A DNA stretch of 64,000 nt. Origin: Stylophora pistillata. Lineage: Eukaryota. This document shows, piece by piece, positions 38,810 to 64,000 of the stretch. The stretch covers positions 1,313,998 through 1,377,997 of the forward strand of contig NW_019217790.1 in NCBI RefSeq assembly GCF_002571385.2, in the 5' to 3' direction. The translations under genes and the position numbers were made by a program. The notes beneath the pieces are model-generated. The model was given only the letters and a program-made list of their open reading frames with translations, made no database searches and had not been told where the DNA came from. The number at the start of each line of letters is the position of its first letter. Position 1 is the first letter of the stretch.

Positions 38810-40054
38810 ATGACAAGGCCGGAGAGAATAAAATCAAGGGACCGTAGTGAAGATGCTGCCGAGACCAAAACATTGCAGACTGCAAGTGGTCATACTACAT
38901 AGGACACCATTTAACGCGACACGATAAATTCCAAAATGAAAGTCAAAATGAAGATATAGGCATGTCGTTGTCTTGTTACGTTTTCTGCACAATACGCAAA
39001 GTCCCTGTTTGTTACTGTCAGGGGAAATGCCTCGGAAGTAGGCCAAAGGAAGCGTTTTCATCAAAACAAAAAAAAAAACAAAATCAAACCAAAAAAAAAA
39101 ATGCCGACGCCAACTATCAACTTCGCGCCAAAGGCTGCAAAGAATGATGAACTAGAAATCAAACGGTATCAATTCGATTAAGAAACATCTACAAGTACTA
39201 TTAGATTTTAAGCATTTTTTTTTCTTTTTGACCCCTTTATTGCAAAAAAAATTATCTTTAGTAAGTGCATACTGTAGAAAATAACTACACACGAAATCGC
39301 AGCTACTAAGATTAGCCCTAAAAGGCATATGAACGATTTAAGATGACAAAACGTTTCCATTAAATGGTTAGAAACCAGCCACTAACACCTAGTTTTGAAC
39401 GTCGTTCGACCAGTGAGCATGCAAGACAAGTTCTCCCTGACTTTTAAGTTTTGTATATGTACAAATGGTACAGCCTCTTCATCGCACAAAGTTACTACCT
39501 CATCGACGTTCTTTAAAAAATGCAAATGATCTCTTAATCGACCTTCTCGCAGCCGCTCGCCTTGCAAATGCGGGTGTAGTGAAATGTTCTAAAGAACATG
39601 TTTTTGATATTACTTTAGTACATCAGCGAGCCTACCTAATGATGTATGTTCTCAGTCTTTGCGATCTTTCGTTGTTTAAGCTTGAGTCCTCTTTCTTTGA
39701 GGGTTATAAAGATAAACTTGTGGCTCCTCTCTTGTTACACTTAATTTTCAGAAGAATTACTACCGAAAAAAGCCAAATTGCACTTAAAGATTGCCATGCG
39801 TGACAGCCGGCTTACGCGACCTCCTTAAGTACTTTTGTGTTCTTTTAATATCGAAAAAATTCCCTTAAATTACATCTAATTTATTAGTTCAAATTCCAGT
39901 CGAAGAAATATCAAGCACTACCTCGTCTTTCTTACATCCTATCGTAAACAATATTCTACTCCTTAGACACGTCGTCTCTATTCCTGCGATCATCGAAATT
40001 TTCACGGTCTTCTTCATCCATTTCGGTATCACCCATCTGATTTTCAGTTTCGTT

Positions 40055-43000
40055 TTAGTCTTCTACAAGTGGTTCTTCCTTGGTTAAGAGAGTCTTCTCT
40101 GTATCGCCTGCGGAATCAATCGCTTGATCATCAGCCGTTTCTTCGATAATCTCTTGATGTCCTTCCCCTGACTGATATTCACTTTCAAGTCCACCTCGCT
40201 TTGAGGAACCAAAGGTGACTGAAAATCCCGAGCTTGGACTCGATGTTTGGTTCGAACTACCAAAAGTGAAAAATGGTTTCGTATCACCCTCTTGACTTGA
40301 TACACCGAAGCCATACGTAAAGCTCCCGCCGGAGGATGAGGCGCCAGATCCAAATAGGAACGACGATTTGGCTTCCTTCTTTTGGCCTTGACTTGGTTCT
40401 GCTCCTGGTTTAATACTTCCACAAGCTGCACACGCTACTTTATCGCTGTCGTTGTTTACCATACAGACAGCACATTCCCACGATCCTTCAGCAGGTTTAA
40501 ACTTGGACACAAGATCTTCTTTGGCATCTATGGTCTTGGGTTCTATGTGTGGTTTCACTGGTGTCGGGTTCTTTAGCATTTCGAGACATTCTTCAAACTT
40601 CTCCTTGTACTGCTTGGCTGTCTCTTCTGATTTAAATCTCACAGCAAGTCGCTCAGCTCTACATTCCCCCTCTGAAAAGTCTGCCATTGTGCTCCACACC
40701 CACGATCTATCTGAACCTGCATTGGGCTGTAGTTTCATGTCAGCGGTTATCTGGTGATTTGCACATATTTTAAGCACCTGATCCCGCCGCATCAGAACTC
40801 TCATCTTTCCACTTTGTCTATTTTTCAAAAGCTTTATATCCCCAACTCCTCGCTCTTTCCACTGCTTGTACTCAGCAACAAAACGATATAGCTTGGCTCG
40901 GTGAGAAAAAATTACCTCATCATCCTCTTCACCAGTTTTGACATCAATCTTTTCGGGAAGAGGAATAATCGGCTCAAAATGTGGTCCATCGTGGTTATCA
41001 TCACCTGTTTCATCATCTTCGTCTGCATTTTTGGAGGCAAACAGTTGTGACCCAGCTCCTGAAAATCCACCTTTAATTTTCTGTTCAAAAGGACTGCTGC
41101 CCAGTGAAGAAGCAACAATGGATTGGAAGGTCTAACACGACACACTTGCAGAGCCGAAAAGAAAGCCTGTCTCGTTGGAGGTCGAGGTGGAACTTTCCTG
41201 AGGATTGGGATCACTTGTTGGTTGATCCGACTGCCTGTTAATTCAACATAGCAATGTGTTACGTGACTCCATCAATTTGAATATATGAAAATCATATATG
41301 TGTACTGCGGTTTCATGAGGTATGAAAGCGATCCTTGCAGTAATAAACCCTTCTTATGTAGTAGTGAAAATAAGGCCTCAAAAAAAATTAAGGCCCGTAC
41401 GGTAGTTGAACCCATTACTTCTGCGATACCGATGCAGTGCTCTACCAAGCAAACTAACAAGCCAACTTGGACTTGTTAGCTCAGTTGCTGGAGCACTGCT
41501 CCGGTATCGCAGTGGTCGTGGGTTCAACTACCGTACGGACCTGAATTTTTTCAGGCCTTATTTCCACTACTTCATAAGTAGGGTTTATTACTGCGACGAT
41601 CGCTTTCATGTTACGTGACGTTTAGACATATATACATCCACATAACTTGAAAAGATCGAGATATCGATTTCATATATGTATGTGCATTCCACTGCACCAA
41701 CGAAGGATTACCCACCTGGCGACCGTCTCCGACACATCAGAGCTGATTTCAGGCGACGAGTTTTCATATCCAAAGAAGTTACTTGGCAATTGAAGCCGTT
41801 TGGCTTTCTCCTTTTGATCAGCCGTCACTCCTTTCTCAAAGAATATCACAATATCTTCTCCAGGTTCCTCTGAGGCTCGTGTGTCAGGAGGTTTGCTTTC
41901 TGGTTTTGATGAAGACAGACCCTTCTCTGGTTTAGATACAAGCAACTGTGCAGCACTGTCGAAGGTTTCTTTGAATTTAGTAGCAACTTCACTTGTTCTA
42001 AACCTTGCAGCTAAAGTCTCTGCTGTGGCTTCTTCTTCCGAGAAGTCAGCAAGTGTTGTCCAGAGCCATGCCTTATCGGAGTTTGGAAAAGGCTTCAGGA
42101 TCATATCCGTAGAAATCACGTGGTTAGCACAGAGTTTCAAGACATGTTCACGCCTCATTAAAATCCTGTTTTTATTAGATTTCGAGTCACACAGTATCTT
42201 GATATCGCCAACACCTCTTTCTTTCCACTGCGATGTATCACCGTCATACCTGAACAATTTACAACGTTCACAGAAAAGCACCTCTTGACCTTCTTCTCCT
42301 GTTCGGCATTCCACCTTATCAGGAAGTGGTATTAGGGGCTCGAAATACGGACCATCATCTTCTCCACGGCCAGGACTCTCAGGAGATGACGGCGTCGTAG
42401 GTGATGATGGTGATTTAGGTTTGCGAGATGGTGACCCAGGTAAAACTGTCAAACTGAAGGTGAACTTCACAGGTGTTGTTCCACCAAACGGAAGACTACT
42501 GGGTAAGTTACTCTTTTCAGGTGTCGTTGCAGGCTTTTGCAGCAAGATACTTCCTTGCTTACTAGGAGAAGATGTCTTCCTTGGAGACAGGTAAATTTCA
42601 TCTTCTTTTTCTTCATTTGGATCTCCACGTCCAATAGTAAAGAGTTTCGAGCTAGCCAGTGCCAGGCCACCAGGTGATTGGATAGTGAATGAAGCTTGAG
42701 AAGGCTCCTTTATTACGTCCTGAGCAGTGTTTGCTGCTTCTGATTGAAGGACCCCAGCATTCGACACTGGTCCTGAAGATTTCAAATTTTCTTCCTTGGC
42801 TTTGGACATTGTTCCCTGAGGTTCTGTTGCAGTCTTACCAAAGTTACATGCAATGCATTGTAAATGTTCGGCATTGTTATCAACGTCACACACTTCACAT
42901 ATCCACGAACCTGGAGCAGGAGCAAACCTCGACAAAAATTGCTTATAAAGTGCACAACCAGTTCCTTGTTCATTACCAGCTGCCTCCTTTGCAGGGCTAG

Positions 43001-46000
43001 TTTCTAAGGGTAATGTCTCTTTGAGGTCATCAAATACTTCCTTGAACTTTCCAGCAATTTCTTCAGACTTAAACCTAATGGCGAGCCTCTCTGGTTTCGC
43101 CTCACCCTCGGTATAATCGGCTGGAGTGAACCACATCCAAGAACGATCTGATCCAACATTGGGTTTGAGTTCCATCCCAGCACTGATGTAATGATTGGCA
43201 CACAATTTTTTTATCTGCTCCCGTCTCATGAGCACTCTTCCTTGACCAGACTTTGGATGCTGTAAGAGCTTCATTTCTCCAAGCCCTCGTTCTTTCCATT
43301 GACTAGAATCACTGTCAAACCGGTATAGCTTGCCTCGCTCGCAAAACAGCACATCTAAACCTTCTTCACCTGTCACAACATGAATTTCATCTGGGAGAGC
43401 AATGATTGGCTCAAAGTGAAGTTTATCGTCATCTTGCCCTTCGACGTCTTCACTAGTCTCAGCAAATAACTCTTTACCAGCTCCTTGAAATGGTTTAAAG
43501 CTCTCTCTTTCCTGAGTCATGGAAAATGCATCGTCTTCTTTGGGCTTTAGAGATGAAAATGTCAGTTGACCAACCGCAGAGGACTCTCCAAACACATGTG
43601 AGGTGGGTATACTTAGTTTTGGCCTTAGATCACCATCTTTAGATCTGGGCTCAGTGCCCTTTGCTTCATTCTCGTTCTTTGATATCATAGGCTCTTTTGA
43701 TATCCCATAACCATAGCATCCACTGCAAGGTGAGTGTTTAGTATAATTGAAGAAATTTACCGGTAGACAAAGGCGACATGCTTTCTCGCGATCACCTATT
43801 GTGGCACGAACTTCATAAACGAGAACACAGTCTTCGTCTTGCTTTTTTGTTGCCTTAAGTGGACTCTTAGCTGTCAAAAAACGTCTCCCAGTCACGTGAG
43901 AAGGAAGAGTGGCAGGCCCAATGTTCTCTGATGGGACGGAATGAATCGGAACTGGTTTCACTGGGGTGGTTACCACATTTCCTTTACCAGATTGAAACTG
44001 TACCTGCACTTGAGATGGTTGCATGGCTGGCATTCTCGAGGGAGACTTATCTAATTCATCCTCTTCATCGTCGGTGGCAGAGTAACTTATGGTTTCATCG
44101 TCAGAATCTTCCGTGTCATCAATGTATTTAACATCATCATCATCATGATTATGGTCATATTCTTCTGCTACAAACGATGTAGGCACGGTTGTGCCATGCA
44201 AGGAAAACTCCTCTCCTGGCTCGTCAACAACATAAGGTGTAAAGTCATAGCCTCCGGCTGGGGAGTCTGGAGTAACTAATTCTTGCTGTTCTTTTGCAGC
44301 AGCAAGGCGTCGAAGTAACTCACTGCTAGAAAAGTCCATGTCGGGTCTGCTACTTAAAGTAAATGCCCCTTGCATCTGAGAATGTGTAAACGGTTGAGGG
44401 AACATTTCTGGCGTCTGTGGAGTACCCTTAAGTTGTGATTTGGCAGGATCCGAGAGCGGCCCTGTTCCCCGGTGCCACAAATTAGCTCCACCGAGAGGTG
44501 GAAGGGACTGAAGTTGACCAAACTGAAAGGTACCAGTGGGTTGTTGCCAAAACAATTTCTGCTCGGAAATTCCTAGATTGGTGGTGGGCGTACTAAATGA
44601 AAACGGAGGATAAGTTTGACCCTGCAAAGCATGCTCTAAAACATTTAGTGGCACTTGACTGTCCCCCTCATTTTTCTCGCCTAATTGAGGATCCGCCTGT
44701 TTATCGGATGCAGATAAATCTGGATCAAAAGATGGGGACTTCCCAGTATTAAAGGAACCAAATGGCACGCCGGGATCAGCCAGTTGTGGTGTCCCACCAA
44801 ACACAGACGTTTCGGTAGACAACAGAGTGTTTTCAAAGGCAGCTTTCTCTGTTGTCGACAAGGAAGGAAATGATGCTCCAGCCATGCCTGACGAGCCAAA
44901 AGTGAAGGCAGGGGAGTTTGATTTGTCTGCATTAGCAGGGACTCCAAAGGGCGCCAACACAAATGGTTGAGTCATTGGAGGCTTTGTCCCTGCTGGCAGA
45001 GTGGAGGATACACCACACACTTGAATTGGTACAGCTCCTTCTTCGGACTCAGATGCCTTGTTATGAGTTGTTCCGTCTGATGAAGTACCAAACACAAATG
45101 GCGAACTACTTGAACTTGTCTTCTCTATTCTGGTACCATTTTCTCTGAGTGAAAAGCTAATTGGCAAACTGCTCGAGGCTGTATTCAGCGTTTGCACGCC
45201 GCTCTTTCCAAAGTCAACTTGCGACCCGGTAGAACTAGTATGAATAATTTTGTTAGCATCTTTTCCTATTGAAAAACTAAAAGAGGAGCTGATTGAGGAA
45301 CCATCCGATGTTTCAAGACCACTATTCACAACGGCAAATGTTGTTCCTGCATCGACATTTGTAACTAAAGATGGGCCTTCAGATGAAGGTTTTCCTTGCA
45401 AACCAAGTGGTGGTGAACTACTTGGTGTTGCTCCACTCGAAAATTGAAAACCAGACTTGGAAGCCTCAGGGCGGGAGACAGCTGCATTTACTCCTGACAA
45501 CTTGGCAGCTCCACAGGCGATGCACACACTTGTATGTTCTTCATTGGAAATTAAACACACAGAGCATGACCAAGAGCCAGGTTTTGCAGCAAATTTACCC
45601 ATGAGGGCGGAAGTCTTCTTGTTTGTGGATTGTGCCGTTTTATGTACGTTAGAAGTATCTTTCTTTGGTAAATTTTGACAGTACTCAAACTTCTTCTTGA
45701 ACAATAGGAACTCATCTTGGGTTTTGAACCTCACTGCCAATTGCTCTTGCTTCTCAATCTCCTCTGAATTATCAGCAAAAGTATTCCAAATCCACGCATT
45801 GGTCGTGCCTTTCTTTTCTGTTAATTTCATATCATTTGTGATGAAGTGATTAGCACAAATCTTATGGATTGCCTCGCGTCTCATCAATATTCGACTACGT
45901 CCCTTCTCTGAGTTATACAGAATCTTTAATATGCCAATACCGCGCTCTTTCCAAGCAGATACATCTTTGTCATAGCGATACAGCTTGGCTCTGCTACTGA

Positions 46001-49000
46001 ACATGACCTCTTCATCTTCCTCTCCAGTTTGTACTTCAACTCGTTCAGGGAGGGGTATGAGTGGCTCAAAATGAACATCTTCAGTGTATGATGTAGAGGA
46101 ATCATGTCTTGACCTTCCAGGCGATACAGGTGAAGTCACAAGCTCCTCAGCCTGCTCTACTCGCTTTTCTGGGTTGTTGCTTGCGCTTAACCCAGCAAAG
46201 AAACTTGAATCAATTTTTAATGGTCCCTTGATCCGAGGCGAAGTAAGAGGTTTTCCGCTTTTCGTTGCAGACATATGCTTTGTACCAGCCGGCGTGGATT
46301 CGAACAAAGGTTTACTCTGATCTCTTGGACTTGGATAAAGTGAAGTGGCATCAGGAAATGAAAGATATCCATAACTTGACGCCTGTATTATGTTCAATTG
46401 TTTCTAAAGGAAAAAAAAATTGTGTATTTGATTTTCATAGCGCGTGACGAAGATAGTACGTTTAGATTTTACACTCCTTCCATCTTTATTTAAAAATACG
46501 TTTTATAAGGCAAGAATATTATCAACGACAAACTCAATAACGTGAGAGCTTTTTGCACTAACCTGCAAAAGTTGTATTTGCTCAGACATGCTGTTCATGG
46601 CCTCATCTCTAATGGCCATTTGTTCTTGCAGGTAGCCATTATTGAGAGTCACTTCACTCAGTTTAGCAATCAGATCTTTTGTGCTGGCGTCATGTGGCTA
46701 AAGAAAAATTGAGGGGAAAAAAGTCTCCCTTCAAATCAAAAAGTAAATAATAGAAACATTTGGAATAACCGAGTTTGCCTTGCAGTGCTGCAAATAGCCC
46801 ACAGCCTTAAAACCAGTTGCCCAGGGAATTCTTTAGAGGACTGTTTTACATGACTGTATATTATCATTTAAAAACCTCAGCAAAGTCATGGAAGAAGTCG
46901 TTGTCTGTTGGTCAAATGCAGGTCTGGTTCATGAAAACTCACCGTTCAGTTCTGCTATAATAAGTTCTCTTTGTTACTAAGCAAAGATTATTTTCTGTCT
47001 CCAGGACATTCAAGAGGGAAATATGAATCAAATCCATTTCATCTTCAAAGAAGAATGAAACTCTTACCTGATCCAACCAGAAATTGTCATCGGATTCTTG
47101 TACCTCTGATGCATTAGTTGAGCTACGCCGGCTTCCCGGATAAGACGAACTTTGATGACTGTCCAGACGTTGGCCTAAAAAAAAGGAAATTCGTCTGTGC
47201 TCTTTTTCAATGTACCTTTTTAAAGAAATACTCACTGTCACGGATAAGTATTGTTTTGAGACTATCCTACTGTGTTATGTCCAATGCTTTGCCCTAAATT
47301 TCCTGGATTGTAGCTTTCCTTGTAGCTAGCATGTAGTATTTTTCGGAAGACAATTTTATATTTTTATACTTTACAGAACTATCAAAAACTCTGTTCAGGT
47401 CACTATACATAGGATTTCCAATGAAGAATTTAGTATTTACATTAAACAATCCTTACTAGATTTTTAAAGTAAAATAAACAATCTGACGGTAAGACTTCCT
47501 CAAATGCGCTAGGGGCCTGGAAAGTAACAGAAAGAAGACAGGATAGGTGGGGGGACAAAATGTCCGTTAAGACCACGTGATACTGAGGAACGGGAGTGAA
47601 GGGTTCCATTTTTGCAAAATTGTGCCAGGCTACCTGATGCTGGCTTAGACTGTAAAACTCCGGTTTTCATCAAGCTCTCTATTTCTGTAAGCTCATCCAT
47701 GACAGCCTTTCGACCAATCTAGGGAGAGAGAATATCAATATTAACATTTCCAAATGAGTGGTAGTATCACCAATATTACTTATTTTGATCTTGTCCTGAA
47801 CGCAAGCTCTGTTTGAGGAAATACCATACAAAGGGTTTGTGGAGATCATCTTATTTAATTTATCGACTCAATTGACAAGTGACAATGAATCCCCAACTTG
47901 AAAACATGTCACCATTTATGTTATATCAAGTAAAACAAATAGGAAGTCCAGTAACTATGGCAGAGCATCGATGCGTGGAATCCGAACGTCTGAGGTTCGA
48001 TTACTAAAGGAAAATCAAATTTTTTCCGCTGCCTCACGCTTGTGAGAAGACGAAAAACATCACCCTTTCTGTCAAGTTATCACACACTTAAACTCTTAGA
48101 AAGTGACGAAAGTGGAAATCTAAATCGACAGTTTTTCCATAAGACACCGGTACATGGATGTGCACCTTTCAGTCTAAAATAAATAGTGTAATAATTGGTT
48201 CAAACATACATCAGAGGAATTAGCCATCTTTAGGTAAGACTGAAGTAATTCTCGTGCTTTTCGCAGATTTTGGTAATACTCCTGGGATGGTAGAGTGGAT
48301 TCCGCCTCGGATTCCTCAGTTGCTGCACACTGCTCAACATGTGCAAGGTATTTGTAACCCTAGAAACAAAACCAAATGACTTTGAAGTCAATAACAATCC
48401 AAAAACTACCCTTGAAGATAATGGCATGGAAGCAACGATTTCCATCTTTACCTCTATTGTATTTTAAAATATCTCATCCTATTTTACTACTTGGCCGTCA
48501 AACATTCCTTTTAAAGAACGTCGAAAAGAATTTGGATGTGCCAGTCAACATCATGGATGATCCTTTACGGGCCAGTCTAGTGATCTTCCTGAGAGGCACT
48601 GCTAGCACTTCTGCTGGCTATACAAATTGAAACGCACAAAACAGACTTCTCCTTGTCTCTCTTACCTGTGCAAGATTGTACAGCCCTGGAGGTGTTTTGA
48701 CCTGTTCAAAGAGTTCCATGGCTTCAAAGATCTTCCCTTCCTTCAAAAGGCCACCTCCTATTGCCAATCGCACAGACTGACACTGTGTCTTCAAATCATC
48801 TTCCTGTAGATAAAGTGACAGAAACTTTTAGCTGTAAGATAATCAAGCCACATGGAATGAATCATTTCCCTCCACTCACCTCTAGTTCATCAAACACATG
48901 AAGAAATAAGGGATTCCCACAATATGGTATGCTCTCATTCCTATGGAAAACAAGTAGCCATCGATCAACCACAAAATCAATTTGTCAGTCAAAGAAGGTA

Positions 49001-49717
49001 ATTTTGGTTTTATGAACTGAGTTAATAATGTAAATTGGCCACTGTAAAGATTTTCAAAGCTGACATTAGCATTAGCCTTTCGTCAGAGCAACTCAGTCAG
49101 GTACACCAGAGGAGACACGTGACCCAATTTTGAGTTGTTTCTTGTGACTCATAAAATTACTTTTAACTTGAAGGAAACAACAGAATAGTAGCATGACATG
49201 ACAGAAAAACGATTGGAGAGGAGACATAGACAAATAAGATACTAGCAATGTCCAAACAAGTAGAAGGCCGCCTACAGGAAGATGAAAACAGAAAGTTAGG
49301 GGGGGAGTTTTCTACAAGCTTAGGCCGGATTTGGTCATGGTGGCCATAGGAAAAGTTAAAAGGGAACTCACTTTTCAAGCATTTCCAAGATTTTGGCTGC
49401 CTGTCTGAAGAAGTGTAAACTCCATTTTTCCAAACTCTGAAATGAAAAATATATATAATGAAATCTAGCCCCACACCAAAATATTTTGTTATGGAATGGC
49501 TCAGTGAAGAAAAGGAGAGGTAAGAAAATCAAGTTTCTACAATTTCATAGCACCTGATCCCTAATTTTAAGTATCTAAAGTATTACAAGCTTCCGTCAGA
49601 GAAAAGTGAGATATTTTAAGACTTACAATAAATGTCGATAACTTGCATTCTGATCACTATGTATGTAGTCTACTCAACTATAATATATCAGCTATAACAT
49701 ATCAACTATAATATATA

Positions 49718-49816
<99 letters not shown>

Positions 49817-49913
49817 AAGCATACGCATCAGTTTAAAATCAAAAGGGAGCTAAAAAATCCGGTTTCTTCTCACAAAATAATAATTTCTTGAGGGCGTTTT
49901 TAATAAAACAATG

Positions 49914-49945
<32 letters not shown>

Positions 49946-49966
49946 TATAGCCAACTCGGCGCTACC

Positions 49967-50002
<36 letters not shown>

Positions 50003-53000
50003 ACACTCCTGGAATAATTGTTAAATATATGATATACATTATAACTATCAGCCTTTATAATATACAACAACAGACCTTCCAATGCTCCTCATAGAACCAT
50101 GGATTTGGAACACTTCCCTTCAGATATGTTGCCTGAAACAACATGTTGGATATATTACGTTCTGTCAACTAATTTAAAACAAACTCATTTTTCCCTCAAC
50201 CTGACCAGACATTAAGTAGATTCACATTTCATTTGTAACCTCTCAGAATGTCAAAATTTACAAAGTTCCAAAATACACATAGCCACCTAATACTCTGCTA
50301 ATTAATCTTTTTTATTTGTCACCTTGTCAATGTGATTCTTGTGAGCTTAATTTTGTTTTCAGTTGACCTTAAAATTAGGGGAAAAAAAAAAACAAAAAAG
50401 GAGTGATGATATTTCCTTCTTACTAACCTTTGATCCAAAGGCATTAGCAAGATAGATCAGCAGTTGAACTTCCTGGCCATGTCTCTCGTCCACAGCTCGT
50501 ATCTTCTCCATACCACACTGAACAGTGTGGCAAGTTTTATTAGAATCTTTAACACTATATAACAATTAAAGTATGGTTAATAAGTTTATGATTCAATAAA
50601 ACACAAATTTTTGAAATTAACAAAAAAATATCTGATAGTCTCTTGGCCAAGAAAAAAACACTGCATTACACCAGCCACGAAATTTTCCCACAATTGTAAA
50701 ATCACAGGGTAAAACTTTTTATTTTAACACCTTTCCACCTTCTTTTTAACCATGCATAGGTTACTTTTGCAAGGAAAAAGCTTTATCAGAAAAAGTAACC
50801 CTGTTCCAAGCTTTATAAGAAAAAGTAACCTTATACTATTAGTGCAAAAGTTATTTCTTTCGAAATCTGCGACAAGTACACGATCTCAAGTGGTATGAAT
50901 GCAAAAGAAAAGACCAATGGATTTCCACTACCCTTGAATAGGATGGTTCTTCATCAATATATTACCCCTAATTAGCTGGTACAAACAGGGGTGTGTGTTT
51001 CAACCCCAGAAGGACAAGGCAAATTAAGAGGGGTCAAACCAACCACCTGCTGTTGCAAAGAACCTACTTGTATTCCATTTTACCTGAATCGTGTGAATAA
51101 GCTCTGTACCCAAGAAATTTGTCATGGCTGGATAAACAAACACCAGGTATAAACAGTTTGATCACATCTACCTTAACTTAACTAAACCTCTACCTGAATT
51201 TTCCAGTGTAGAGATTATATGCACATGTCCACCACTCCTGTTGAACAGGTAAGCTTAGAGTATCACAAAGCGGCTGAGGTAGAATTTGAGGCTCATAATC
51301 CTCATAAAAAATGTCTTTGTCCTCCAGAACTCTAGCTGCTGAAGTCCTTACAACTGCATAAACAAATGCCTAGTAGTAAACAAACAGCTATTTTAAGGTG
51401 TATTTTTGAAAAAAGGTTTGAAATGACTAGATGATGCTGGAAAGAAGCAGGTGTTGGGTATCCTCATTTAAAGTTGTAACATCTTCTTGGCTACATCTAC
51501 AAACACATTGTATGATTCATGAAAGAAGTAGCTGGCAAAACATTACCAATCTACCTAATGAAATAAGCTGACTGCCAGTTCTATTGTAAAACCCTGTAGC
51601 CACAACAGACAAAGCAAAGAAACAAATCCAAATGCTTATCAATTTAGTTATAATTGTTTGTCCATGCAGAAGTCTCTGCATTACCTCTAGGTCCCTCAAG
51701 CATAACATGTTAGGAGCAATGTGTTTCTCAATGCTTGGAACATCAAGTCTCAGCTCTGGAAAAATGTCCTTCACCATGATACCCACTGAAGGAGGAAGAT
51801 CAATGTTAATCAGCAAGAAATCTGAAGTTATAAATAAAAAATGAAGAGAAAAGTCAAGTGTAAGGAAGCTTTAATCCAACCTCCAGGCCTCATTTCCTTG
51901 TTGTATTGATACCAGTGTAATCCAATCCAGGTCATGTTTTCCAGGCTACGAGGATTCTCCCCAACTGCCACTACAATTCAAGAGATTCGAAACTATTACA
52001 CAACTGAAAAACTAAGCAATGACCAACCAAAGAATAGGAGAAGTCTAGCTAAACTACTGACAAATGATTTTATCCATCAAATTCAAAACAACAATTTTAG
52101 CAATTTCCTGATTGAAGCAGCATGCAGGATGATTGTCTCATATGCATGACCTGTACTACCAGACATATTTAGCAAGGACACTTCTTCTGAAAAACATCTG
52201 TGACCTTCTCTCCCCCTCTCCTTCCAATGTTGTCAGATGCCAAATGTATCTATGACATCAGGCAGACCAACACTGAGAGGGGAGAGGGGAGGTGTCTCAC
52301 GAAATGTGTTTGAGAGTGAACCTCACCAACAAGTTTTTCAGTGGCCTAGTGGGAAGAACATCCAGGGGCAACTTCCTAAGGAAGACTCAGTATTATCCAT
52401 ACCACAGTTATGAAAAATTCATAATTAATCTTGACTGTCGGCCGACTGTTGGCCAAGAGTTGGCTGTTTGTCGGTCGACTGTCGGCTGTTTGTTGGTTGA
52501 CTGTTGGCCAACAGTCAGCCAACAGGTTTTTTGGGGAGCTATTATTGAATTTTACCCATTTTCTAGACAAAACTTTCCACTATTCTTGCAGAATGACAAC
52601 CTTTCATCACCATCAAAAAACAGTCTGCAGTTTACCTTCATCCCAACCAACCAGTTGATCAACATCTGGTATTGTCATCTCAGTATCACAATAGTCTTCA
52701 TCACATGCCAAGAAAGACTATGGAATGAAGAACAAAAAGGAAAATTATCATCAAAGTCCACCAACTCCTTAACTCAATCTTATCTCTGACAGGAACAGCA
52801 GAAAATGTACTGCAAAACATCTCTAGTCTCAGATTGAGAATCCATTATTTTTCCTTTCTGACAAATGCTGTCTCTAGACTCCACTGAGTTATGGATGCAT
52901 GTGGGAGGTTGCTGAGCATGAAAGAAGTGCCAGAGTCACTCGAGGCAAGTGCATCCACAACTCAATAGTGTATGCTGTGGTGTTTATCAATTGTTTTATA

Positions 53001-56000
53001 ACATAAAAAACAACTTCTTGCAAAACATTTGCTTACTTAGAAACATTTGCTTGCCCCAGCAGCTACACCCATTGGCAAATAGTAGACACTGAGTTGACCT
53101 TTCAGACCATGCATTGTATGTAATTTATGTTATAACTGACTAGAGCTCATCTTAACACTTAACAATGCAATGCTTACTTTAGACAAATCTCTCTCATCTC
53201 TGTAAAGTGCACTGAGGATGTCATGTTGCCCCTGCCTTGAGCAGCAGTCTGTGTGACAGGTGTCCAACCAATCTTGACCTAGCTTGTCTCTTGTGGCCAT
53301 GAGAAAATGCCCTGCGGATTGAAATATGCTTTCAATGGAAAAATAGCTTGGATCCCTTGAACAAAACCTATTTAAACACACCTATTCAACTTCTCTCAAG
53401 TCCCTTATCTCAACTCCCGTTATCATGGACTCTTAGTTCTTATTCACCACTTTTCAAGCCATGTAACAAATCAACGTAGCTTGAGGGTAGGATGGGAAGA
53501 AATAAAACAAATAAACCACTTACCAGTTTGGCTGAGCCTTGAGCAGGCCATGATGTACCATTTGAGAGGGTCTTTGTTTTTAGGGGCTCTAGCAACCCAG
53601 GGTGTCTTTGTTTCAGGCTGAAGAATACTGACACTTGCCAAGTAACAGGCACAAGCCAATCTCAGCCCTCTAGGCCAAGTTACAAATTTCTATAGTAAAA
53701 AAAAAGAAAACATAACCAGATCTTACCAAATTAAATATATCTTCCAATAAAAGACTCGTTTTCTATGATGACACTCAAAAGAAGCCTCAGGTGAATTATG
53801 TAATTTATTTCCAGTTAGGAAACCAAAAAAAGATTAATCCTTGGAAAAGTCAACTTTAAACAGGTATTTAGACACAAAAGGACTGTCCAAATTATTTTTA
53901 CATGGACTTATACTTGACACAACTTAACAAAACAAGATTCAAGACTACCATTGGTAAACATAAATTATGACATTTTTTCAGGCAGCAGTATTTTCAAAGC
54001 TTGTACAGAAAAATGTTACCCTCATTCATTTCCACAGTCAATGAAAAATGACAATAGTTTGCAGCAAGTAAGGTAAGAATCAACCATCATAATGACTGAG
54101 CAAACATTCACAGTTCTGTACGCCATGAACCTTTATGGTAACCACTACATGTCCACGAGGAAATGATCAAATCATCATTATTAACCTAAGTTGACTTGGA
54201 CAGAGCACACGTATTTTTTCTACAACACTTGGAATACCTCCTTGGCAAGTCGAATTAAAAAAGTGCCGCAGTACATGTAAAGCTGAGCTTTCATCTCTGA
54301 TAGAATCACTTCCCACTCAGTTGGTCCACCTGATATTGATCGTCTCGGTGACTGGCGGATTTTACGCCCATAAGCCATAAACAAACAGTGATCTAACCTA
54401 ATAATATTAAATGATGTTAATATTTTATTATTATTGATCAATACTTCATCAGCCTAACTATTAGCAATGTTTTTAAAAGTAATAAAAAAGGATGTGTTGT
54501 TTGGTCCATAAGGTGTCAAGTACATGTAATCTTCATCTTTGTCTTTGTCAATGATGACATGTGTGATCAAAGGTGTTAATGAGCATTAACCCATTGACGT
54601 CCAGTGCGCCTGTATGCGCCCATGGGGACCCACACCCTTTCTACGCCTTGTGACGTCATCACTTTTAACCCTGGAGCACGAATTTGAGCACCTAGTTGAA
54701 CAGGTTGAAAATATCTTACAGATGATACCAGAATGAGCGCAATTGAGTGAAGGAGATTGGAGAAATAGCCAAAAAACCGTGTCACTTTGACCTGAAAATC
54801 TGCACGAAAATCGTGTTTCACTACCCACCTACCTTTCCGAGCATGTGCTTTGAAAATAATGAGTAGTTTCTGAAAAATCTCTACACCAAAATGAAGCCTA
54901 CTCAATTTCCAGCAAGTGAGGAGAAACTTCAGGCAAGGAGAGGGGGAAAAAAAGGGCAGGAGAAAGAGAGAAACGTAGAAGTCGTAAGTGGGGCATGACT
55001 TTTCAACCCAAAAACTATGTCGAAATCTTGCTCTCTGCACATGCGCGAGATTTTCAGGCCGCCATTTTGCATTTGGATCGAAAGGCCATCCAGTGCACGA
55101 GCTGTCAAGGGGTTTTTGTTAAGTTTGAGCTTTTAAAACCACAACAGTGACCCAAAATCTGCTCGACTAACCTCAAAACACAGTTTTCCACAAAAGCTGC
55201 GGCCATTAATGGGTTAATGGACAGGATGCAAAATTGAGAAAACTTTACCAAAGCAAAAATACAAAACTGGAGGGGTGTGCAGAATGAGGCTTAAATGACA
55301 TCCAGTGCAACATTTACTTCTCCTTCTTTTATCACCAGGAAATATTGGAGAGTCAGTTTTCATCCAGGTGTGGCACAGTCATCCATACTGTTCATTATAA
55401 CTAAATTGATTTTAAGTAAGTGATTTCCTTTGCCCTACCTGAAGAGAACATTGATAACTTCACGAGTGCTGCATTCACGGAGATTTAGCTCCAAAAACTG
55501 ACAAAGTGCAATGAGAAGGTAGGCATGTACATCAAGTATGCTGTTACCAGTACCTACTGCCTCATCTTCCAGTACTGCAGGCAATAGAAATTTGAATAAA
55601 TTTACAGCAAAAAATGTAAACTTTAAAAACAATGCCTTAGAATTAATTATGTACCAAGGGATTTAGTAAATTTCAGTCTACGTCAATGGTCTGCAAAGTT
55701 AATATCAAATTGTCTATGTGACTGTTAACCATAAGAGAGCTTTTTTGTCACTCAGAAAAAGTAAAGTATGGTGAAAAATCCAGCATCCAATACTCACTGT
55801 GCTTTTCCAGAGATGCAAGGTATTTCTACAAAGAAAAGAACAGGCTTAATGATGTTGTTCTGTCATATAACAAGAGTAGAGGAGTCTTCAACTGCAAGCA
55901 GTCATGCTCTAGAGTCTTACCTCAAACATTTCCACACTACATGCAACCCATGGTAGACTGTCTTGGAAGGCTTTTGTTTTCAAAACTGTCGCACAATGAC

Positions 56001-58205
56001 TAAAAGCCTCATCAAGACGTCCTGAAAAAAAACAAACAAACAAAGAGTTTCTCCTTACAATATCAATACAATACTAAGAAAACAAGTGATGAAGTGATGG
56101 GAATAAAGAAAAAAGTGGGGTGAATAATTATTAGTTGATCCAATGACAAATTCTCTAAACTTACATGAAAAAAAATGTATAGCAGACACTATGGAGATTT
56201 CAAGACTTGAAAAGCATCATAATCAATGATCAGTAGTACATTACCTCTCACAGCATACAGTCTCACCAATCTTACATGTAAGTCAACTTCTCTGGGCCTC
56301 TTGCTCTAAATTAAAAACAGAGATAGGTACATCATATATTGTATACAGTTGGAGACCGTTTTTTACCCTGTCTTAGAAGAAAGTATTGTGTGTGTGTCAC
56401 ACCCTCCTTCTTCCACTTATTTGCACCGTTACCCATTAATAATGGGGAGTATAAGGAAATAACGAAAGAGAGAAACTTACAAGTTCTTCAGAAATCAAAT
56501 CTTCAAGAGCCTCATAATCTCCAACTTCAGCTGACTCCAGAAGATGCAACTGTAGTGTAAAGAAAACTTGATTGGTTAGTTTGTTAATTCATAAGTAGCA
56601 AAACATCAATATCACTTTGACATTTTAGAAAACATTTGAAGCACATGTCACTCAAAACAAAACCTCACCCTCAGACTGAACACATCTGGATGGCCAGGAA
56701 ACAGACGAGCACCTCTGTCTGCCCATGCCTGTGTGGTCAATTCACAAAATTAATCCACATTAAGAAACAAAATTTCAAAGTTTCACCATTTGAGGTAAAG
56801 AGTTGTATTAGTACTAACCTTAGCTCTTTCTGGATGAACTGGAACATTGCAGTATAATTTTACCACTGAAATAGATTTTGCAATAATTTCAATTATTGTT
56901 GTTCTTTTCCAGTTAATCACTATTTGATAGCTTCCTTTAAAACAAGTCTTTGATATAAGAAAGCAATTAAAGAAACAGAAGAGAGGGATCAATTTGCAAT
57001 TCAATGAGCATCATCCTGACCTTTCAAAACTAGTTCCTTTTGACTGTTATTCAATTCCAAAGACCTGTAAGATTCAATTGTTTAATATCATCACAATTAT
57101 TATCAAATTATTGCTGTAATCATTATCATTATTGTCATAATTGATAATAGTATACACTGAAACAATTGATACCATCAAGGCCATGCTCTGATTGGCTATT
57201 CAAATTCCAATATCAGCACGAGCAGGATTTTCACCCAAAAATATTGTAATTGTTGCAGGAAGAAATGGGTTATAGTCATCTTTTTGTGCTTTATTATCTC
57301 ACTGTTTTAAGAGACACTAAAACAGCTACTGAACTCACCACTTTGCAGCTCTGTAAATATCCACTACTAGCCACCTTAACTTCAGTGAATAGTTGTTAAT
57401 TACTCATATTACATTAATTTATTATAATTGACTCTAAATCCTAAGACATCAATCACCATTTTGAGAACTACTACACCTTGAAGAGCATGACTAAATATCA
57501 AACAGAAAAACACACAATACCTGCGATATGAAGCCACAGCCCTTTCTAGTTCACCCATTCCTTCACACAGCTGCCCCATGAGATAATGACCCCTATGGAT
57601 TGGAAGCAAATATCAATGGAGCATCATTTAAATATTAGGGTTTATTTCTCATAAAAACTTAGCTGTATATTATCTGATTTGGGGATGAATGAATGAATGA
57701 ATGAAGAACTTTTTTTAACGTGTCTTTGAGAAAGCAGCTGGGGGGAAAAGTCCCCTCTGCAAATTGAGGACACCTGTTGATGCTATCTAAAATGGATTAG
57801 TAAAACAAATAGATAAATTACCTTATTTAAATTTATAAAAGAAAAGAGTAGCGTATTCTTCAAGTATCCCTTTAAAGGTTTTTCTACTGTTGTAGCTCTT
57901 ACAAAACAACTCAACATACACACCATAAATAATCAAAAGGATGGGAACATTTAGTATGATTAACATCTGACATTCATGAGCACAAAACCAAATAAAGTGA
58001 TATAGCGAAAAAAAAAAAAAAAAAGAAAAAGAAACCCATAAAATAGTATAAGCTGTGAAATTATCTGAGACTGACTTACCATAGAACTTTTCAATCGGAG
58101 ACAAACACACATAATTATTACCTTAGCTGTCAGTCTTTTTATATACGTATAAATCAAACCTACCTAAAATCAGTCTCATTTTCGCCAATGTAAGCTTCCA
58201 GATGT
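40055..58205 (-). CDS. RANBP2: RANBP2/Nup358 nucleoporin and SUMO E3 ligase (5' exons not in window; in-frame TAG at 41132-41134)
   Basis: Many short TPR/helical-region exons from ~58205 to ~46562 (HYLMGQLCE..RAVASYRRSLELN..QKELVLK, WADRGARLFPGHP, MTWIGLHW). A 4.7-kb exon (46403-41716) carries three RanBP1-type domains (HFEPLIPLP..WKERG), two RanBP2 zinc fingers (WxCxxC..CxAC), FG motifs and two IR-like repeats. The last exon, from 41234, carries a fourth RBD and a third zinc finger. Confidence 0.95.
41277..41612. mobile_element. Head-to-head inverted pair of tRNA-derived repeats in the last RANBP2 intron
   Basis: Arms GAAAGCGATC..GTGAAAATAAGGCCT..CCGTACGGTAGTTGAACCCA..CTAACAAG / CTTGTTAGCTCAGTTG..TGGGTTCAACTACCGTACGG..AGGCCTTATTTCCAC..GATCGCTTTC. 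Confidence 0.75.
47950..48070 (+). mobile_element. Degenerate tRNA-derived SINE of a second family
   Basis: GGCAGAGCATC..GGAATCCGAACGTCTGAGGTTCGATT (B-box-like). The tail CACGCTTGTGAGAAGACGAAAAACATC has a reverse-complement relative at ~36410-36444. Confidence 0.5.
52430..52530. repeat. Degenerate 12-bp tandem repeat (CCGACTGTYGG-like), self-complementary units
   Basis: gactgtcggccgactgttggccaa..gtcggtcgactgtcggc..gactgttggccaacagtcagccaacag. Confidence 0.6.
54590..55213 (-). mobile_element. piggyBac-like non-autonomous element, 624 bp, TTAA TSD
   Basis: TTAA at 54586-54589 and 55214-55217, CCCATT..AATGGG ends; reverse-complement copy of 24955-25860. Confidence 0.85.
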
Positions 58206-58419
58206 CTAACAAGGGAAAAATGCACACTACACTTTTAACTACAATTATCATCATGGCAGTGCTCTATATAAATCATCACATCCCCACAAAACTTCCCCCA
58301 TCCCAACTCATCCGATTGAGAGGCTGATCGGGGTCACAACAACACATTCATGGGATAAAAGAGAAGTGACATCCTTCCTAGGCTGAGGGGAACACTTGAC
58401 TGAGGGGAATCAATTGATT

Positions 58420-61400
58420 AAAAGTTAGGGGTGCAAGCATCTATCGATACGGGGTGACAATATATCGAAAGCGTTTGTTGAGGGTAAGAGTAAGCGGTAG
58501 TTTGGTCAGCAGGGAAATTATGAAACCCATGAATATTCTGAAAGCCCCCAAAAGGATGACATTTAAAACTGAAGAGAGGTTTGACTAAGACACTAGAAGG
58601 CGTAATGATGACAACGACTATTAAATCATCTTTAAACAAATCAGAGATTGAGTTCCCTGAGGAAAACCTTAAAAATTGTTCTGTTAAAAACCAGCCCTTC
58701 TTGGGTTATTTTGAAAAAAGGGACGAGTTTGAGGATATGCTCCACAGGTTTCTTCTTTTAAGTTCCACATGCTTTGTAAAGAAGGCCTTGCACTCAAAGG
58801 AGTTAAATCACAAGAGGTTTTCAAAAATGGTAGGGAGTTTCTTTTATTTTTAGCTGATTTTTTGCTTTTATCAATTGGGAGTGGACCTTGTAGAGACCTG
58901 ATTGTTTGATCTTTTGTAAAAACTTATGCAATGCACCAGCGGAAAAGTGTTGAAACATTTAAAACTGTTTGATATAAAAGAAAGCCCTTGGAAAAAACTT
59001 TAAGTGCTTAACCTAGTATACCAAAATACTTTTTCAAATTATGTATTCTAATTAGTGTCTCTCGTCTTTAAACACAATGGTGGTAAAGTACCAATCCAAT
59101 TTTTTGGCAAACCGTTACCATTGTAAGCAATGAAACTCGGCATTGCCTTCAAGGACCAACAAAGGTGAGAAATCCTTTTGTAAACAGAGTTTGAAATGTA
59201 ATCAAATGTATCAGTTGTACTCCATTTTGTATAACCCATGAAACTATTATAAGTTTTTTTAGGTATTTTAGTGAAGGAATCCTTTGAGCTTTTTGCATGC
59301 AGAGGGAAAGCTTTGCTCTATTTGATTTGACCCAATGTCAAAGGGTCTTGATGTTGGCTGTCAAGCCATGCTGACCTGTCACAGAAGCTTTGATAGAAAG
59401 CAGATCTGTGCTGCTCAGTAATTCTTAGCAAACAGAGTTGTGAAGAGGGTGGCAAATGGGGAGTTCCAAGCACACATCACGCATCACCGAGATTTGTAGC
59501 GTGATGCAAGTGAAATAGCTGCAATTGAAGAACAGTTTCCAGGAAGTGTGGCATACATTTGCGACTTTCATGGGATAAAGACTCTTCAACGGTAGGCATG
59601 ATCGAAGAAGAACAATCTACCATCTGCAGAACAAGATATGTTTCTAGAATTTATGAAAGGCATAGGCTAAGTGTCTTATAAGGATCAATTTAAAGAGTGA
59701 GTAAAGGCACTTAGAAAATCCAACCTTTACAAAGATCATGAAACTTTGAAGGACTATGTTGAAAACACCTGGCTGTTATGTGCTTATTGATGAGTCCAGG
59801 CTTTTCGTAAACAGCAGGCAATCAACATAGTAAATACCAGCAACAGAATTTAAGCACAGAACAAAGTATTTAATACGAATATTTATCAAGATCAATAGAC
59901 AAGTCCATTTATGGTATTGCAACTATTTTAGTGGAATGATTTATCCCGGAATTCCTATCAGCAATACCTGCAAAGCAATTTAATATTCAGTAGTGCTTAA
60001 GGAAGGTACAATTCCTCTATTCCTGCTTACATGCAAAACAGACCCCCACAATTTGTGAAGCACTGCTTGAAATCTCACTTTCAGGCAAGTGAATACCAAG
60101 ATGGCGATGTATTGATCCTCTGTTAATTTCCAGAAAGGTGAATTTCACATGAAAAGTTTCAGTAAGTTGAAGCAGAAACATCTTGTCCAATTAACAATTC
60201 CAAGTTGCACCTGTGAAGCCTGGCAGAAGTCCCAATACCCTAGTAAGCACTTCTTCATGGTGTTCAAAGCCTACCGAGAGTGGGACTTTAATACTCTTCC
60301 AGAGGACTATAAAATCAGTGTATTCATCACTCTTGACACTGAACATTTGAATGTTAATTTCCTGGTCTTCAGTGAGGAAGATGCACCACTGCATGCCGCT
60401 CAAATAAGAGACAATTTCATTGAAGAGAAGGAAGATGCTTTTAGTGAATGCAGCCCGTCAGAACTGCCGGATATCAAGGAAACTCCTAAGGACAGCACAG
60501 AAACACAAGTTGGCAGAAGAGCAATTGAAGGGATTAAAACGGGTCTGCCTTCCCTCAGCACAAGACTGAGAAACAACCTTCAAGAGTAACTGAATGCTGT
60601 GAAAGATGTTGCTTTTCTCATGGATGACAACAACATACTCATGCAGGGAGGCATTAAGTGGCATAAAGGTAGTCTTCACCATGCTGACAAAAAATTGTCT
60701 CAAAAATCATGGCCTCCCTCTTAGAAATAGTCCAGTGAAGGAGAAATTAAAACTAAACCAAGTTGAATAACACCAGGTGTTGCACAAAAAGCTACCTAAA
60801 CAGAGGAAATGGAAGAAGAGGACTTCTACACCTATCGTGTTGCCAGACAAATGATGACGAGCGAGGTAACTTAACAATAAAAATATTGATACATATATTT
60901 GAATAGAGCTTACTTAGTCGTCTTAAAAAGAAATAGGTTTTTACATGTGAAAACTTAAGGAACTATTCCTCTTTATGACCAGATCATTCTTTCCATCGCA
61001 TAAAAATAGAAATAGCGTTCCTACCACTTAAACTGTTCATCATTTTTTCGGCAAACTGGAGAAGTAATTGCGGACTTGCCGTGACTTTGAGTAGTGAGGA
61101 CAGTGACCAGTGCAAAGAAACAGAAAATAGAATTTCTGAAGAACCCAAGCAAGCAACAAACAGTTTGCGGTTAATCTCTTATCAGGCTAAGCTCTTTGAT
61201 TTTAAGAGGGTACTACTCCAGTAAATTTTGCCATTGTTTCTATTTTTCATTTCTGTCTCTTTCAGAGACAGTACCTTTCATGGCTAACAGCAAATTTGGA
61301 AATGTGACCCTGTCATGTGTCTTCTCGATGCAAAGGGAGTTAACCTAGGGATACACCATGTCATGCTTGAGATCGAACCTTCAAGACTAAAGGTTGGTGA

Positions 61401-63760
61401 CCTGTGGATACTTCTTCCTCTGCATGTGGCCATGCAACACTCCTCAGAGACGAGCTCTATTAAGGACTTTGTCAGAGGTTGAGCCATAGACAAGGTACCA
61501 TGTTCATAAAACAATCTGTGTCACAAAATATTATTTATGTATATGCTACAATCAATCAATTTTTGTGCCTCTTCTATTATACCAGGTTGTGGAAGCTGTG
61601 CTATGGAAATTGACCCCACAGTATAATGGCCTGTTTTATGCAGACAGCACCTTGGCTGAAATTATTAAAATTGGATGTAATACATATTTGGTTTGGTCAG
61701 GAGAGAGATTCTCAAATGTTACCAGGATATTTGTTCAGATCATAAAATCTGGAAGCCACTGGACTCTGTTGGTAAGTGTAACATACACACTGGTAACATT
61801 ACTCAATGGCTATCTGAATCATATACATTTATTTCTTGACCAGTGGTTTCTATAACAAAATTAAATTACAAATTAAATTACACTAAATCTAACGACCAAA
61901 AATAAATGACAAATGAAATAAAAAAAACCAAATAAACAGGTGGAATGAAAACTTAAAACACACCTGACGGTTTGAATTTTGAAAGAATGCAAGACGCAGC
62001 TTAAAGACATACAACACCAAACTACATAACATAACAAAACTTTTTGCGCAAACACTGCAATATATCTGTTGATGCAAGGGGACTCAACCCCACCACATGA
62101 ATGGATCACTGGTCTCCAAAATTTGTTTTAACAGTAGGCTTTTGTTAAAACTTAATTGAAGTGTTTTACTGAAAGAGATAACCAATTCATAGCAAATTTG
62201 ATTAAGGAAGGGTATGTTTGAGGTGAAATTAAGAGCCCTAACTTCTTGTTTTTAAGATCTTGGACAAATCAACAGCGAGCAGGTACTACTTTGACCCTTT
62301 GGCAGGAGATGTTCCATGAGAAATAAGTCCTCTAACAAATCCTTCTCTTGCATCACTGTTAGATAAGATAAGGTAAGACTAAGTACTGTAGACATGACTT
62401 ATTGACTTGCCCTGTTCTGCCAACAGAAGAGTGAACATGATAGGAAAGTAAGCTACTTTCAGTGCTTTTAACAAGTGTAAAGTTATAAAGTCATAAGCGA
62501 AAAAAACCTGTTCCATTGATTTAGAATGGCAGTCGCTTTGACAATAAAGTAGCCCTTTACTTGCCTGTCATTATATTTGTAGTGAGGTAGCTGACACCAA
62601 AACAGGCTGGCTTTCTCTGGCCTTGCATCAAGCCCGTGCACTTTAAACAGAAGGATGGGTACAACTGTGGAATTCTCATTTGTCTCATAAGCAGATAACT
62701 CGCTATGCACCCACAGGCGACATTTAGTTTATAGTTTGATATAGAAGTCGCTATTCTTATTAAATCATGAGGTGCTAAGGTATGAAATCTTTACCCTCAC
62801 AAAATAACGAGCATTACCATTCGACATGCTAGCAGCTGGATGAAGTGCATTCGATTATTTATACCTGGACAACCAATGGTTTCTGCCTTAAAAGGAATTT
62901 AAGGGAATACTGCATATTCTTCACTCATTTTTCCCAATAATTGATTGTCATTTTCAACCGTTTCTTTCAGTTTGCAAGATGTTTGTGCAAAGAATCCTCT
63001 GTAGATGCAGCTTTCGACATACCAACCAAACATGCACGACTAACGTCTATGGTGTTTGGCTGTTGTTATGATGACATTCACGAATAAGTAACCTAAGTAA
63101 CAGCTTGTTTCCAAACTGCATATCCTTTAACCTTTCCAAGCATCAGGTTTGATCCTGATACAGGGTTAAGAGTCAAAGTCAGAGATCTGAGCCAATAAAG
63201 AAGAGATATTTAATTGAATGATAATGAAATATATGTTTCGTCTGCTGTATGAGAAATATCAAAGTCGGCAAAGTGTGCCATGACAACGATGGAGAAGATA
63301 GGCTGGAATGTGACAGTTGTGGCCAGTACTTCCACACAAGTTGCACCAAAGTGGACTTCTCAGAAACTCTCTCTAGCTACTTTGTCTGCCCTTGTTCATA
63401 TTACATAAACAAAAAACTAGACTCAATGCTGCAAGGAGAATCTCTCTCAAAATTTACTTTTTAAGAGATGAAATTATTGTCTAAAATTCAAACATTACTG
63501 TTAGGTTTATTGGCACATTGATAACCTTGTAAATAGCTCATCTGAAAACATTTGTATTAGTTTTGTATATCTTTATACTCTGTTCAGTGCGATCTTACAC
63601 ATTTTGGGTTTGAACTTTTTGTGGGGAACAAGTGCTACACCTTACATGACGTTTTTAATTTTGACCGCTGTACCTGTTTGTGCGACCCTCGACGAATGCC
63701 TTCGATACAGTGTCACCCAACAGAGCTGAATAACGTGAATGCATGCGCTAGCTTTTTTTG
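58420..63760 (+). mobile_element. Decayed Mutator-like (MULE) transposon with transposase, SWIM finger, Ulp1/C48 peptidase and PHD finger remnants
   Basis: EIAAIEEQFPGSVAYICDFH (~59507-59571), NTSNRI*AQNK (catalytic E position is TAA at 59851), SWIM CTCEAWQKSQYPSKH, SHWTLL (~61754), YYFDPL (~62284), KQKDGYNCGILIC (~62645) and PHD-like LECDSCGQYFHTSC..FVCPC (63249 ORF). There are many stops, and degenerate inverted ends at ~58420-58490 and ~63685-63760. Confidence 0.8.
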
Positions 63761-64000
63761 CGGAAACACGGATCTTGAGTCATTCGCATGAATGATTTCC
63801 TATTCTGTTGTTTTGAGATGTCGTTTGCCTTGCTGCCTTTCTTTTACAGAACAACTCCAAAACCTTGGTACACCCCCTGAAAAGTTTCAAAAATTAATTT
63901 TCTCCTTAAAACCTCTGGAAATAGGAAAATGCCTTCGACGAAAACAGAGTTCCTCGGTTTTAAAAGACAGCCCTTACTATTTTGCGCTAATTTCGCTAAA

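What the first reader, a model, noticed from the sequence alone, without database searches (positions are those of the whole stretch)
41132..41134. In-frame TAG in RANBP2 just upstream of an intact fourth Ran-binding domain and zinc finger
Seen: the last exon (acceptor at 41234, phase matches the donor at 41716) reads TGFLFGSASVSC-TAG-TFQSIV, then stays open for ~358 codons. That stretch holds a complete RBD (HFEPIIPLP..WKERGVGDIK), a RanBP2 zinc finger and FG motifs. The paralogous pre-RBD motif earlier in the gene is HVFGESSAVGQLTFSSL, so Leu (TTG) is expected here, one base from TAG. Inference: a consensus error, a nonsense allele, recent truncation or stop readthrough. A stop in the last exon would normally escape NMD.
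Basis: partly seen in the sequence, partly recalled or inferred. Interest (0 to 1): 0.7.

Follow-up and report, generated by a model that had tools for sequence, protein, structure and literature searches.

The report
Assembly-only stop in coral RANBP2
The stop codon is really in this coral genome assembly, but the other samples checked read leucine at that spot, so it is likely an assembly quirk in a duplicated region (or one colony's rare variant) and not a real truncation or readthrough of the nuclear-pore gene RANBP2.

Summary
The in-frame TAG (41134-41132, minus strand) is there as described, upstream of an intact Ran-binding domain and zinc finger. It is not a feature of the species. Of 8 public runs laid, 7 cover the codon and all 7 read TTG (Leu): 9 of 9 raw RNA reads, and 5 of 5 contig sets, from 6 studies. 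RNA uses the 41716-41234 junction. Leu stands in 80 of 83 homologous alignments, and the downstream domain is as conserved as those upstream. Readthrough and a fixed truncation are therefore out. The codon lies in a 5.9-kb segment (46104-40194) whose two ends recur, 98-99% identical and inverted, around a 3-kb N gap about 40 kb away: a likely collapsed duplication. So the base probably comes from a collapsed copy or a miscall (0.62), or is a private allele of the sequenced colony (0.3); no run of that colony was identified. The exon may not be the last one, which weakens the NMD-escape argument. Three public models of this scaffold each dodge or end at the TAG. Low interest; an annotation fix.

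The parts
41132..41134 (-). TAG in this assembly; TTG (Leu) in all other samples that cover it (the differing base is 41133)
40055..41234 (-). Exon 30 of RANBP2 as assembled (coding part to TAA at 40057-40055); fourth-RBD-type exon with a short end that does not match the Pocillopora continuation
40583..40945 (-). Fourth Ran-binding domain, intact; 123 of 135 residues identical to Pocillopora, like RBD2 and RBD3
40406..40489 (-). RanBP2-type zinc finger
   Evidence: 26.8 bits, cut-off 27
41235..41715 (-). 481-nt GT-AG intron, spliced in RNA; holds a high-copy palindromic repeat (about 41278-41609)
41716..46403 (-). Large exon 29: RBD1-3, zinc fingers, IR1-M-like repeats
40194..46104 (.). Segment whose two ends recur inverted on either side of an N gap at G000:C7:1397015-1399995; inferred collapsed duplication that contains the TAG
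   Evidence: depth and contig ends
41023..41896 (-). 874 nt skipped, in frame, by a minority joint (GC..AG ends) that removes the codon; used by model XP_022791125.1; likely a genomic deletion in one copy
41093..41096 (-). Two in-frame AG acceptors downstream of the TAG; 41096 used by model PFX33958.1; no read support, weak sites
39235..64000 (-). RANBP2/Nup358 gene, 30 exons as assembled; start codon at window-equivalent 64561, just outside the window; RNA 3' end near 39235

Best explanation
The TAG is present in this assembly but the other samples that cover it read TTG (Leu), and it is likely an assembly-side artefact: a base from a collapsed duplicate of RANBP2's 3' part, or a plain miscall, written into the consensus. 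Shown: TTG in other samples, normal splicing into the exon, Leu in homologues, an unrelaxed downstream domain, and inverted 98-99% identical copies of both ends of the surrounding 5.9-kb segment around an N gap. Inferred: the gap hides a second copy of the segment, reads of both copies were pooled, and the stop came from the second copy or from error. RANBP2 is then translated through Leu into RBD4 in the ordinary way (2,833 aa as assembled; probably longer, with a fifth RBD, if the 3' end is mis-joined).
For: At 41133: X22 2 of 2 reads and X24 7 of 7 reads (6 start places) show TTG; X2 contig 35.3 of 35.3 depth; X1, X12, X7, X16 one contig each, all depth TTG. 7 of 7 covering runs, 6 studies, none with TAG. 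Leu in 80 of 83 alignments that span the column, incl. three Pocillopora species, Desmophyllum, Acropora. RBD4 vs Pocillopora 123/135, RBD2 123/135, RBD3 122-123/135; dN/dS 0.09 against the neighbouring copy over the RBD. Flanks of the N gap match 46104-45944 (99.4%, 161 nt) and 40360-40194 (98.2%, 167 nt). X2 contig depth 19.5 on the unique 3' end against 41-47 inside the segment; its 3,381-nt contig from 42724 would end at 46104 if colinear. No second assembled copy of the codon region in G000.
Against: No run was shown to be the sequenced colony: every run laid differs from the window at other sites, so error, collapsed copy and private allele were not separated. Contigs drop rare variants and a stop allele could be depleted from RNA by NMD, so only 9 raw reads test it directly; by hand, about 8-9 sampled chromosomes without TAG allow a frequency up to about 30%. 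The tool warns that contig depth is no copy number. The gap (2,981 N) is shorter than the 5.6 kb it should hold. In X1 the depth at the codon (114) is close to that of the unique 3' end (99), so a full second copy is not seen there. Protein databases cannot show homologues with a stop.
Confidence: 0.62

Rival explanations
1. The TAG is a real, rare nonsense allele of RANBP2 itself in the sequenced colony, probably heterozygous, which the haploid consensus happened to pick. It would give a 2,474-aa protein with three RBDs, or be removed by NMD if the exon is not the last.
For: The window differs from the runs at other single sites as alleles do (41078, 41849, 41850, 41874). [quoted passage not shown] Single-base consensus errors are rare in short-read assemblies (own knowledge).
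Against: Not seen in 7 of 7 covering runs. No decay downstream. The site lies in a likely collapsed duplication, where consensus bases are least reliable.
Confidence: 0.3
2. Splicing bypasses the stop, through the in-frame acceptors at 41096/41093 or the GC-AG joint 41897-41022, as two public gene models have it.
For: Both routes are in frame. The 41897-41022 joint is in contigs of X2 (depth 12), X1 and X7 (loose ends at 41022); its GC..AG ends are what splicing would leave. Models PFX33958.1 and XP_022791125.1 use these routes.
Against: No joint at 41096/41093 was listed; raw RNA shows only 41716-41234. The skipped stretch is conserved coding sequence. These acceptors score -1.6, -1.8 and 0.3 against 4.3-19.4 for the gene's 29 real ones, and the GC donor context 0.8 is near the bottom (matrix trained on those same sites). 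X1 and X2 behave as DNA (contigs run into the intron, no spliced joint), so the joint looks like a genomic deletion. With TTG there is nothing to bypass.
Confidence: 0.05
3. The TAG is fixed in the species and is either read through or marks a recent truncation.
For: Only the open, conserved frame downstream.
Against: mRNA and DNA of other samples carry TTG; homologues carry Leu; the context TAG-ACC-TTC is none of the leaky contexts I recall (UGA-CUAG, UAG-CARYYA).
Confidence: 0.02

Closest known systems
RANBP2 / Nup358 of stony corals (Pocillopora verrucosa XP_058947600, P. meandrina CAH3149658.1, Desmophyllum, Acropora palmata)
   Same: TPR-like N-terminus, RBDs, RanBP2 zinc fingers, IR1-M, the same RBD4 exon start (QSDQPTSDP...FLFGSASVSSLTFQS), no cyclophilin domain.
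   Different: They have Leu at the codon. Pocillopora and Acropora have five RBDs; the assembled gene here has four and another C-terminal end.
Public models of this scaffold: XP_022791131.1, XP_022791125.1, PFX33958.1 (labelled Stylophora pistillata)
   Same: Same locus; XP_022791131.1 maps letter for letter to the window in 30 exons.
   Different: They end at the TAG, skip 874 nt, or use acceptor 41096. None has the form that reads support (41716-41234 junction with Leu).
Reference-only premature stops (consensus errors, private alleles, paralogous variants in collapsed duplications)
   Same: One base from a conserved sense codon, absent from other samples, in a repeat beside an assembly gap. 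The class is recalled, not taken from a call.
   Different: Which of the three sources applies here was not settled.
Great-ape RGPD genes (RANBP2 segmental duplicates; PMC6920530, passages read)
   Same: Part of RANBP2 is duplicated and joined to another coding region.
   Different: Here the 3' part of RANBP2 follows an N-terminal coiled-coil-like region (P0018/P0214); no GRIP domain was found. An analogy, not homology.

Membership tests
RANBP2/Nup358 (invertebrate type) | Several Ran-binding domains | tested here: met
   4 Ran_BP1 stretches in P0213, 604 bits
RANBP2/Nup358 (invertebrate type) | RanBP2 zinc fingers | tested here: met
   3 stretches, 65.8 bits, cut-off 27
RANBP2/Nup358 (invertebrate type) | IR1-M SUMO E3 region | tested here: met
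   PF12185 39 bits, cut-off 25, partial
RANBP2/Nup358 (invertebrate type) | N-terminal TPR / alpha-helical pore anchor | tested here: met
   TPR hits at residues 61-91, E about 1e-4, below cut-offs; colinear with Desmophyllum and Acropora N-termini
RANBP2 (vertebrate type) | C-terminal cyclophilin domain | tested here: not met
   None in P0213, P0221, P0124, P0122; cyclophilin-bearing queries gave no such hit in the window plus 40 kb. Sequence downstream of the window start was not searched.
Programmed stop-codon readthrough | Stop codon present in the mRNA | tested here: not met
   9 of 9 raw RNA reads and the spliced contigs of X7, X12, X16 read TTG
Programmed stop-codon readthrough | Stop conserved in relatives | tested here: not met
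   Leu in 80 of 83 alignments; proteins cannot show stops, but full-length orthologues run through
Programmed stop-codon readthrough | Leaky context after the stop | tested here: not met
   TAG ACC TTC against recalled motifs
Programmed stop-codon readthrough | Ribosome footprints or peptides across the stop | not testable with these tools
   no such data
RGPD-like RANBP2 duplicates (for the neighbouring copy) | Near-identical segmental duplicate of RANBP2 | tested here: inconclusive
   Only the two gap flanks can be read; depth is suggestive
RGPD-like RANBP2 duplicates (for the neighbouring copy) | GRIP domain fusion | tested here: not met
   No GRIP hit in P0214

The most novel reading that the evidence does not exclude
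Corals carry an RGPD-like chimera: the 3' part of RANBP2 is duplicated, inverted, behind an unrelated coiled-coil gene and kept about 99% identical by gene conversion, with segregating variants in the duplicate (this TAG, an in-frame 874-nt deletion). A similar coiled-coil plus RANBP2-part protein is annotated in Oculina patagonica (58% over 178 aa), so the arrangement would be old and convergent with the ape RGPD genes.
Probability: 0.3. Interest if true: 0.45.

Novelty: not a real feature. Interest (0 to 1): 0.12.

Why it matters
As a biological finding it does not: the gene reads Leu in the other samples checked. Practically, the three public protein models of this scaffold are each wrong at this spot, and the 3' end of the gene is probably mis-joined, so domain counts and variant calls made on this reference are unsafe here. 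The only lead with some interest is the neighbouring coiled-coil/RANBP2 duplicate.

Tried and rejected
Readthrough, fixed truncation, RNA editing: rejected, as DNA-like and RNA runs both read TTG. Alternative acceptors 41096/41093: no joint listed, weak sites. A second premature stop at 40055: TAA aligns loosely with Lys/Gln in Pocillopora, but no difference was listed there (complete table) or among the rows shown (114 rows hidden), so it is taken as the real stop of that end. A second assembled copy with TTG in G000: none found. Conspecific proteins reading through the codon: none; best hits were 89% identical. JGI metagenome scan with a 20-nt stretch beside the codon: 2 hits, both unrelated chance matches. 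ESM Atlas on the coiled-coil region: best score 0.77, no lead. Earlier findings near this place: none. Literature searches (listings and abstract starts only) showed no paper on coral RANBP2, on this stop, or on readthrough in corals; the library lacks most subscription papers. No supplements were read; I do not expect them to bear on the verdict.

Full report
Observation. The TAG is at 41134-41132 on the minus strand. Spliced from the donor after 41716 to the acceptor before 41234, the frame reads ...SETVARQSDQ...TGFLFGSASVSC*TFQSIV and stays open for 358 codons. The open stretch holds a full Ran_BP1 domain (E 1.3e-52) and a RanBP2 zinc finger just under the Pfam cut-off. Proteins on a contig of the same length as G000:C7 are labelled Stylophora pistillata; one maps letter for letter to the window in 30 exons with 29 GT-AG introns. 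The gene is the coral RANBP2/Nup358.

Reads. One search listed 24 runs; I laid 8. In one search (three raw RNA runs, 2% of each read, and one DNA-like contig set) position 41133 shows the letter that gives TTG in 2 of 2 reads of X22, 7 of 7 of X24 (6 start places) and all 35.3 depth of X2; X23 has no cover. In one search, X1, X12, X7 and X16 each have one contig over the codon, all TTG. So 7 of 7 covering runs from 6 studies read Leu (codon effect), none TAG. The 41716-41234 junction is in 1, 10 and 2 raw reads and in the contigs of X12, X7 and X16. Limits: contigs drop rare variants, NMD could hide a stop allele in RNA, and every run differs from the window elsewhere, so none is shown to be the sequenced colony. 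By hand, 8-9 sampled chromosomes without TAG allow a frequency up to about 30%; fixation is excluded.

Homologues and constraint. Among 355 proteins held, 83 alignments of at least 45% identity span the column: 80 Leu, 1 Ser, 1 Phe, 1 gap. Three Pocillopora species read SVSSLTFQS, Desmophyllum SVASLTFQS, Acropora TVASLSFQS. Against Pocillopora the window's RBD4 is 123/135 identical, RBD2 123, RBD3 122-123, RBD1 128-129; dN/dS against the neighbouring copy is 0.09 over the RBD and 0.49 after it. There is no sign of decay behind the stop.

Bypass routes. In-frame acceptors exist at 41096 and 41093. The public models of this scaffold show three ways round the stop: XP_022791131.1 ends at it, PFX33958.1 uses 41096, XP_022791125.1 joins 41897 to 41022. 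No joint at 41096/41093 was listed, and these sites score below all 29 real acceptors (matrix trained on those sites). The 41897-41022 joint is real sequence: X2 has it at depth 12, X1 and X7 as loose ends. It is in frame and has GC..AG ends, which argues for splicing; but X1 and X2 run unbroken into the intron and lack the spliced junction, so they behave as DNA, and the GC donor context is poor. I read it as a genomic deletion in a minority copy (inferred).

Why the assembly is weak here. About 40 kb beyond the gene start lies an inverted RANBP2-like gene (P0018/P0214) with a 2,981-N gap. The left flank of the gap is 99.4% identical to window 46104-45944 and the right flank 98.2% to 40360-40194. 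The TAG lies between these points. X2 depth is 19.5 on the unique 3' end and 41-47 inside the segment, and its 3,381-nt contig from 42724 would end at 46104 if colinear. The tool warns that contig depth is no copy number; the gap is shorter than the segment; and X1 has 114 at the codon against 99 at the 3' end, so a full second copy is not seen in every sample. A collapsed duplication is the likely reading, not a shown one.

Is it the last exon? Pocillopora and Acropora RANBP2 have five RBDs. In Pocillopora the RBD4 exon goes on with a second zinc finger and is followed by an RBD5 exon; those parts match the neighbour beyond the gap, with a 433-nt intron between them. The window exon is RBD4-type up to about 40194 and then ends otherwise. 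Raw RNA depth is about 30-75 from 39400 to 40741 and 1-15 upstream, and many reads near 40711-40724 carry the neighbour's letters. This fits a 3' end fed mostly by an RBD5-type exon, that is a mis-joined assembly; 3' bias may add to it.

Mechanism and odds. Shown: the gene is spliced normally and reads Leu in other samples. Inferred: the A at the middle codon position came from a collapsed copy or a miscall (0.62) or is a private allele of the colony (0.3). The latter is plausible since C-terminal RanBP2 domains are dispensable for viability of mouse fibroblasts (PMC3160583, abstract and passages). Splice bypass 0.05; readthrough or fixed truncation 0.02.

Comparison with what is known. The gene is an invertebrate-type RANBP2 without cyclophilin. 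The stop fails every readthrough test that could be run. The neighbour recalls the ape RGPD duplicates (PMC6920530, passages) but has an N-terminal coiled-coil-like region and no GRIP domain; a similar protein is annotated in Oculina, and Pocillopora has duplicated RANBP2 3' parts (98% over 319 aa). Six literature searches (listings only) showed nothing on coral RANBP2.

Verdict. Observation confirmed; not a feature of the species; interest 0.12. The useful outcome is a correction to the gene model and a warning on this region of the assembly.

Noticed in passing
G000:C7:1394069-1402375 (L008, L009), beyond the window: Inverted chimeric gene: about 190-aa coiled-coil-like N-terminus, patchwork RANBP2 pieces, N gap, zinc finger exon, RBD5-type exon (P0018/P0214). 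A protein with the same N-terminus plus RANBP2 parts is annotated in Oculina patagonica (P0020).
   Followed up: partly
G000:C7:1379224-1381820 (L007): A second copy of the coiled-coil exons, ending in an IR1-M-like piece of RANBP2, head to head with the RANBP2 start and followed by a tandem array of about 114-nt units.
   Followed up: no
window 41023-41896: In-frame 874-nt joint with GC..AG ends, seen in DNA-like contigs (X1, X2) and in X7; removes the IR-like repeat, the intron and the codon. Deletion or intron-loss-like event not settled.
   Followed up: partly
window 39235-40741: RNA depth is roughly ten times higher than upstream, with a step near 40741; suggests the 3' end belongs mostly to an RBD5-type exon and that the assembled exon is mis-joined.
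   Followed up: partly
window 41278-41609: High-copy palindromic element (MITE-like) in the intron: depth in the thousands in X2, read on both strands in RNA, related copies at 36713-36902, 23803-23940 and 15228-15306.
   Followed up: no
P0221, P0122, P0124, P0213: Coral RANBP2 proteins lack the C-terminal cyclophilin domain and have 4 or 5 RBDs; in Pocillopora the RBD4 and RBD5 cores are nearly identical, as by gene conversion.
   Followed up: partly
window 25173-25456 and 38195-38205: N gaps inside the window.
   Followed up: no
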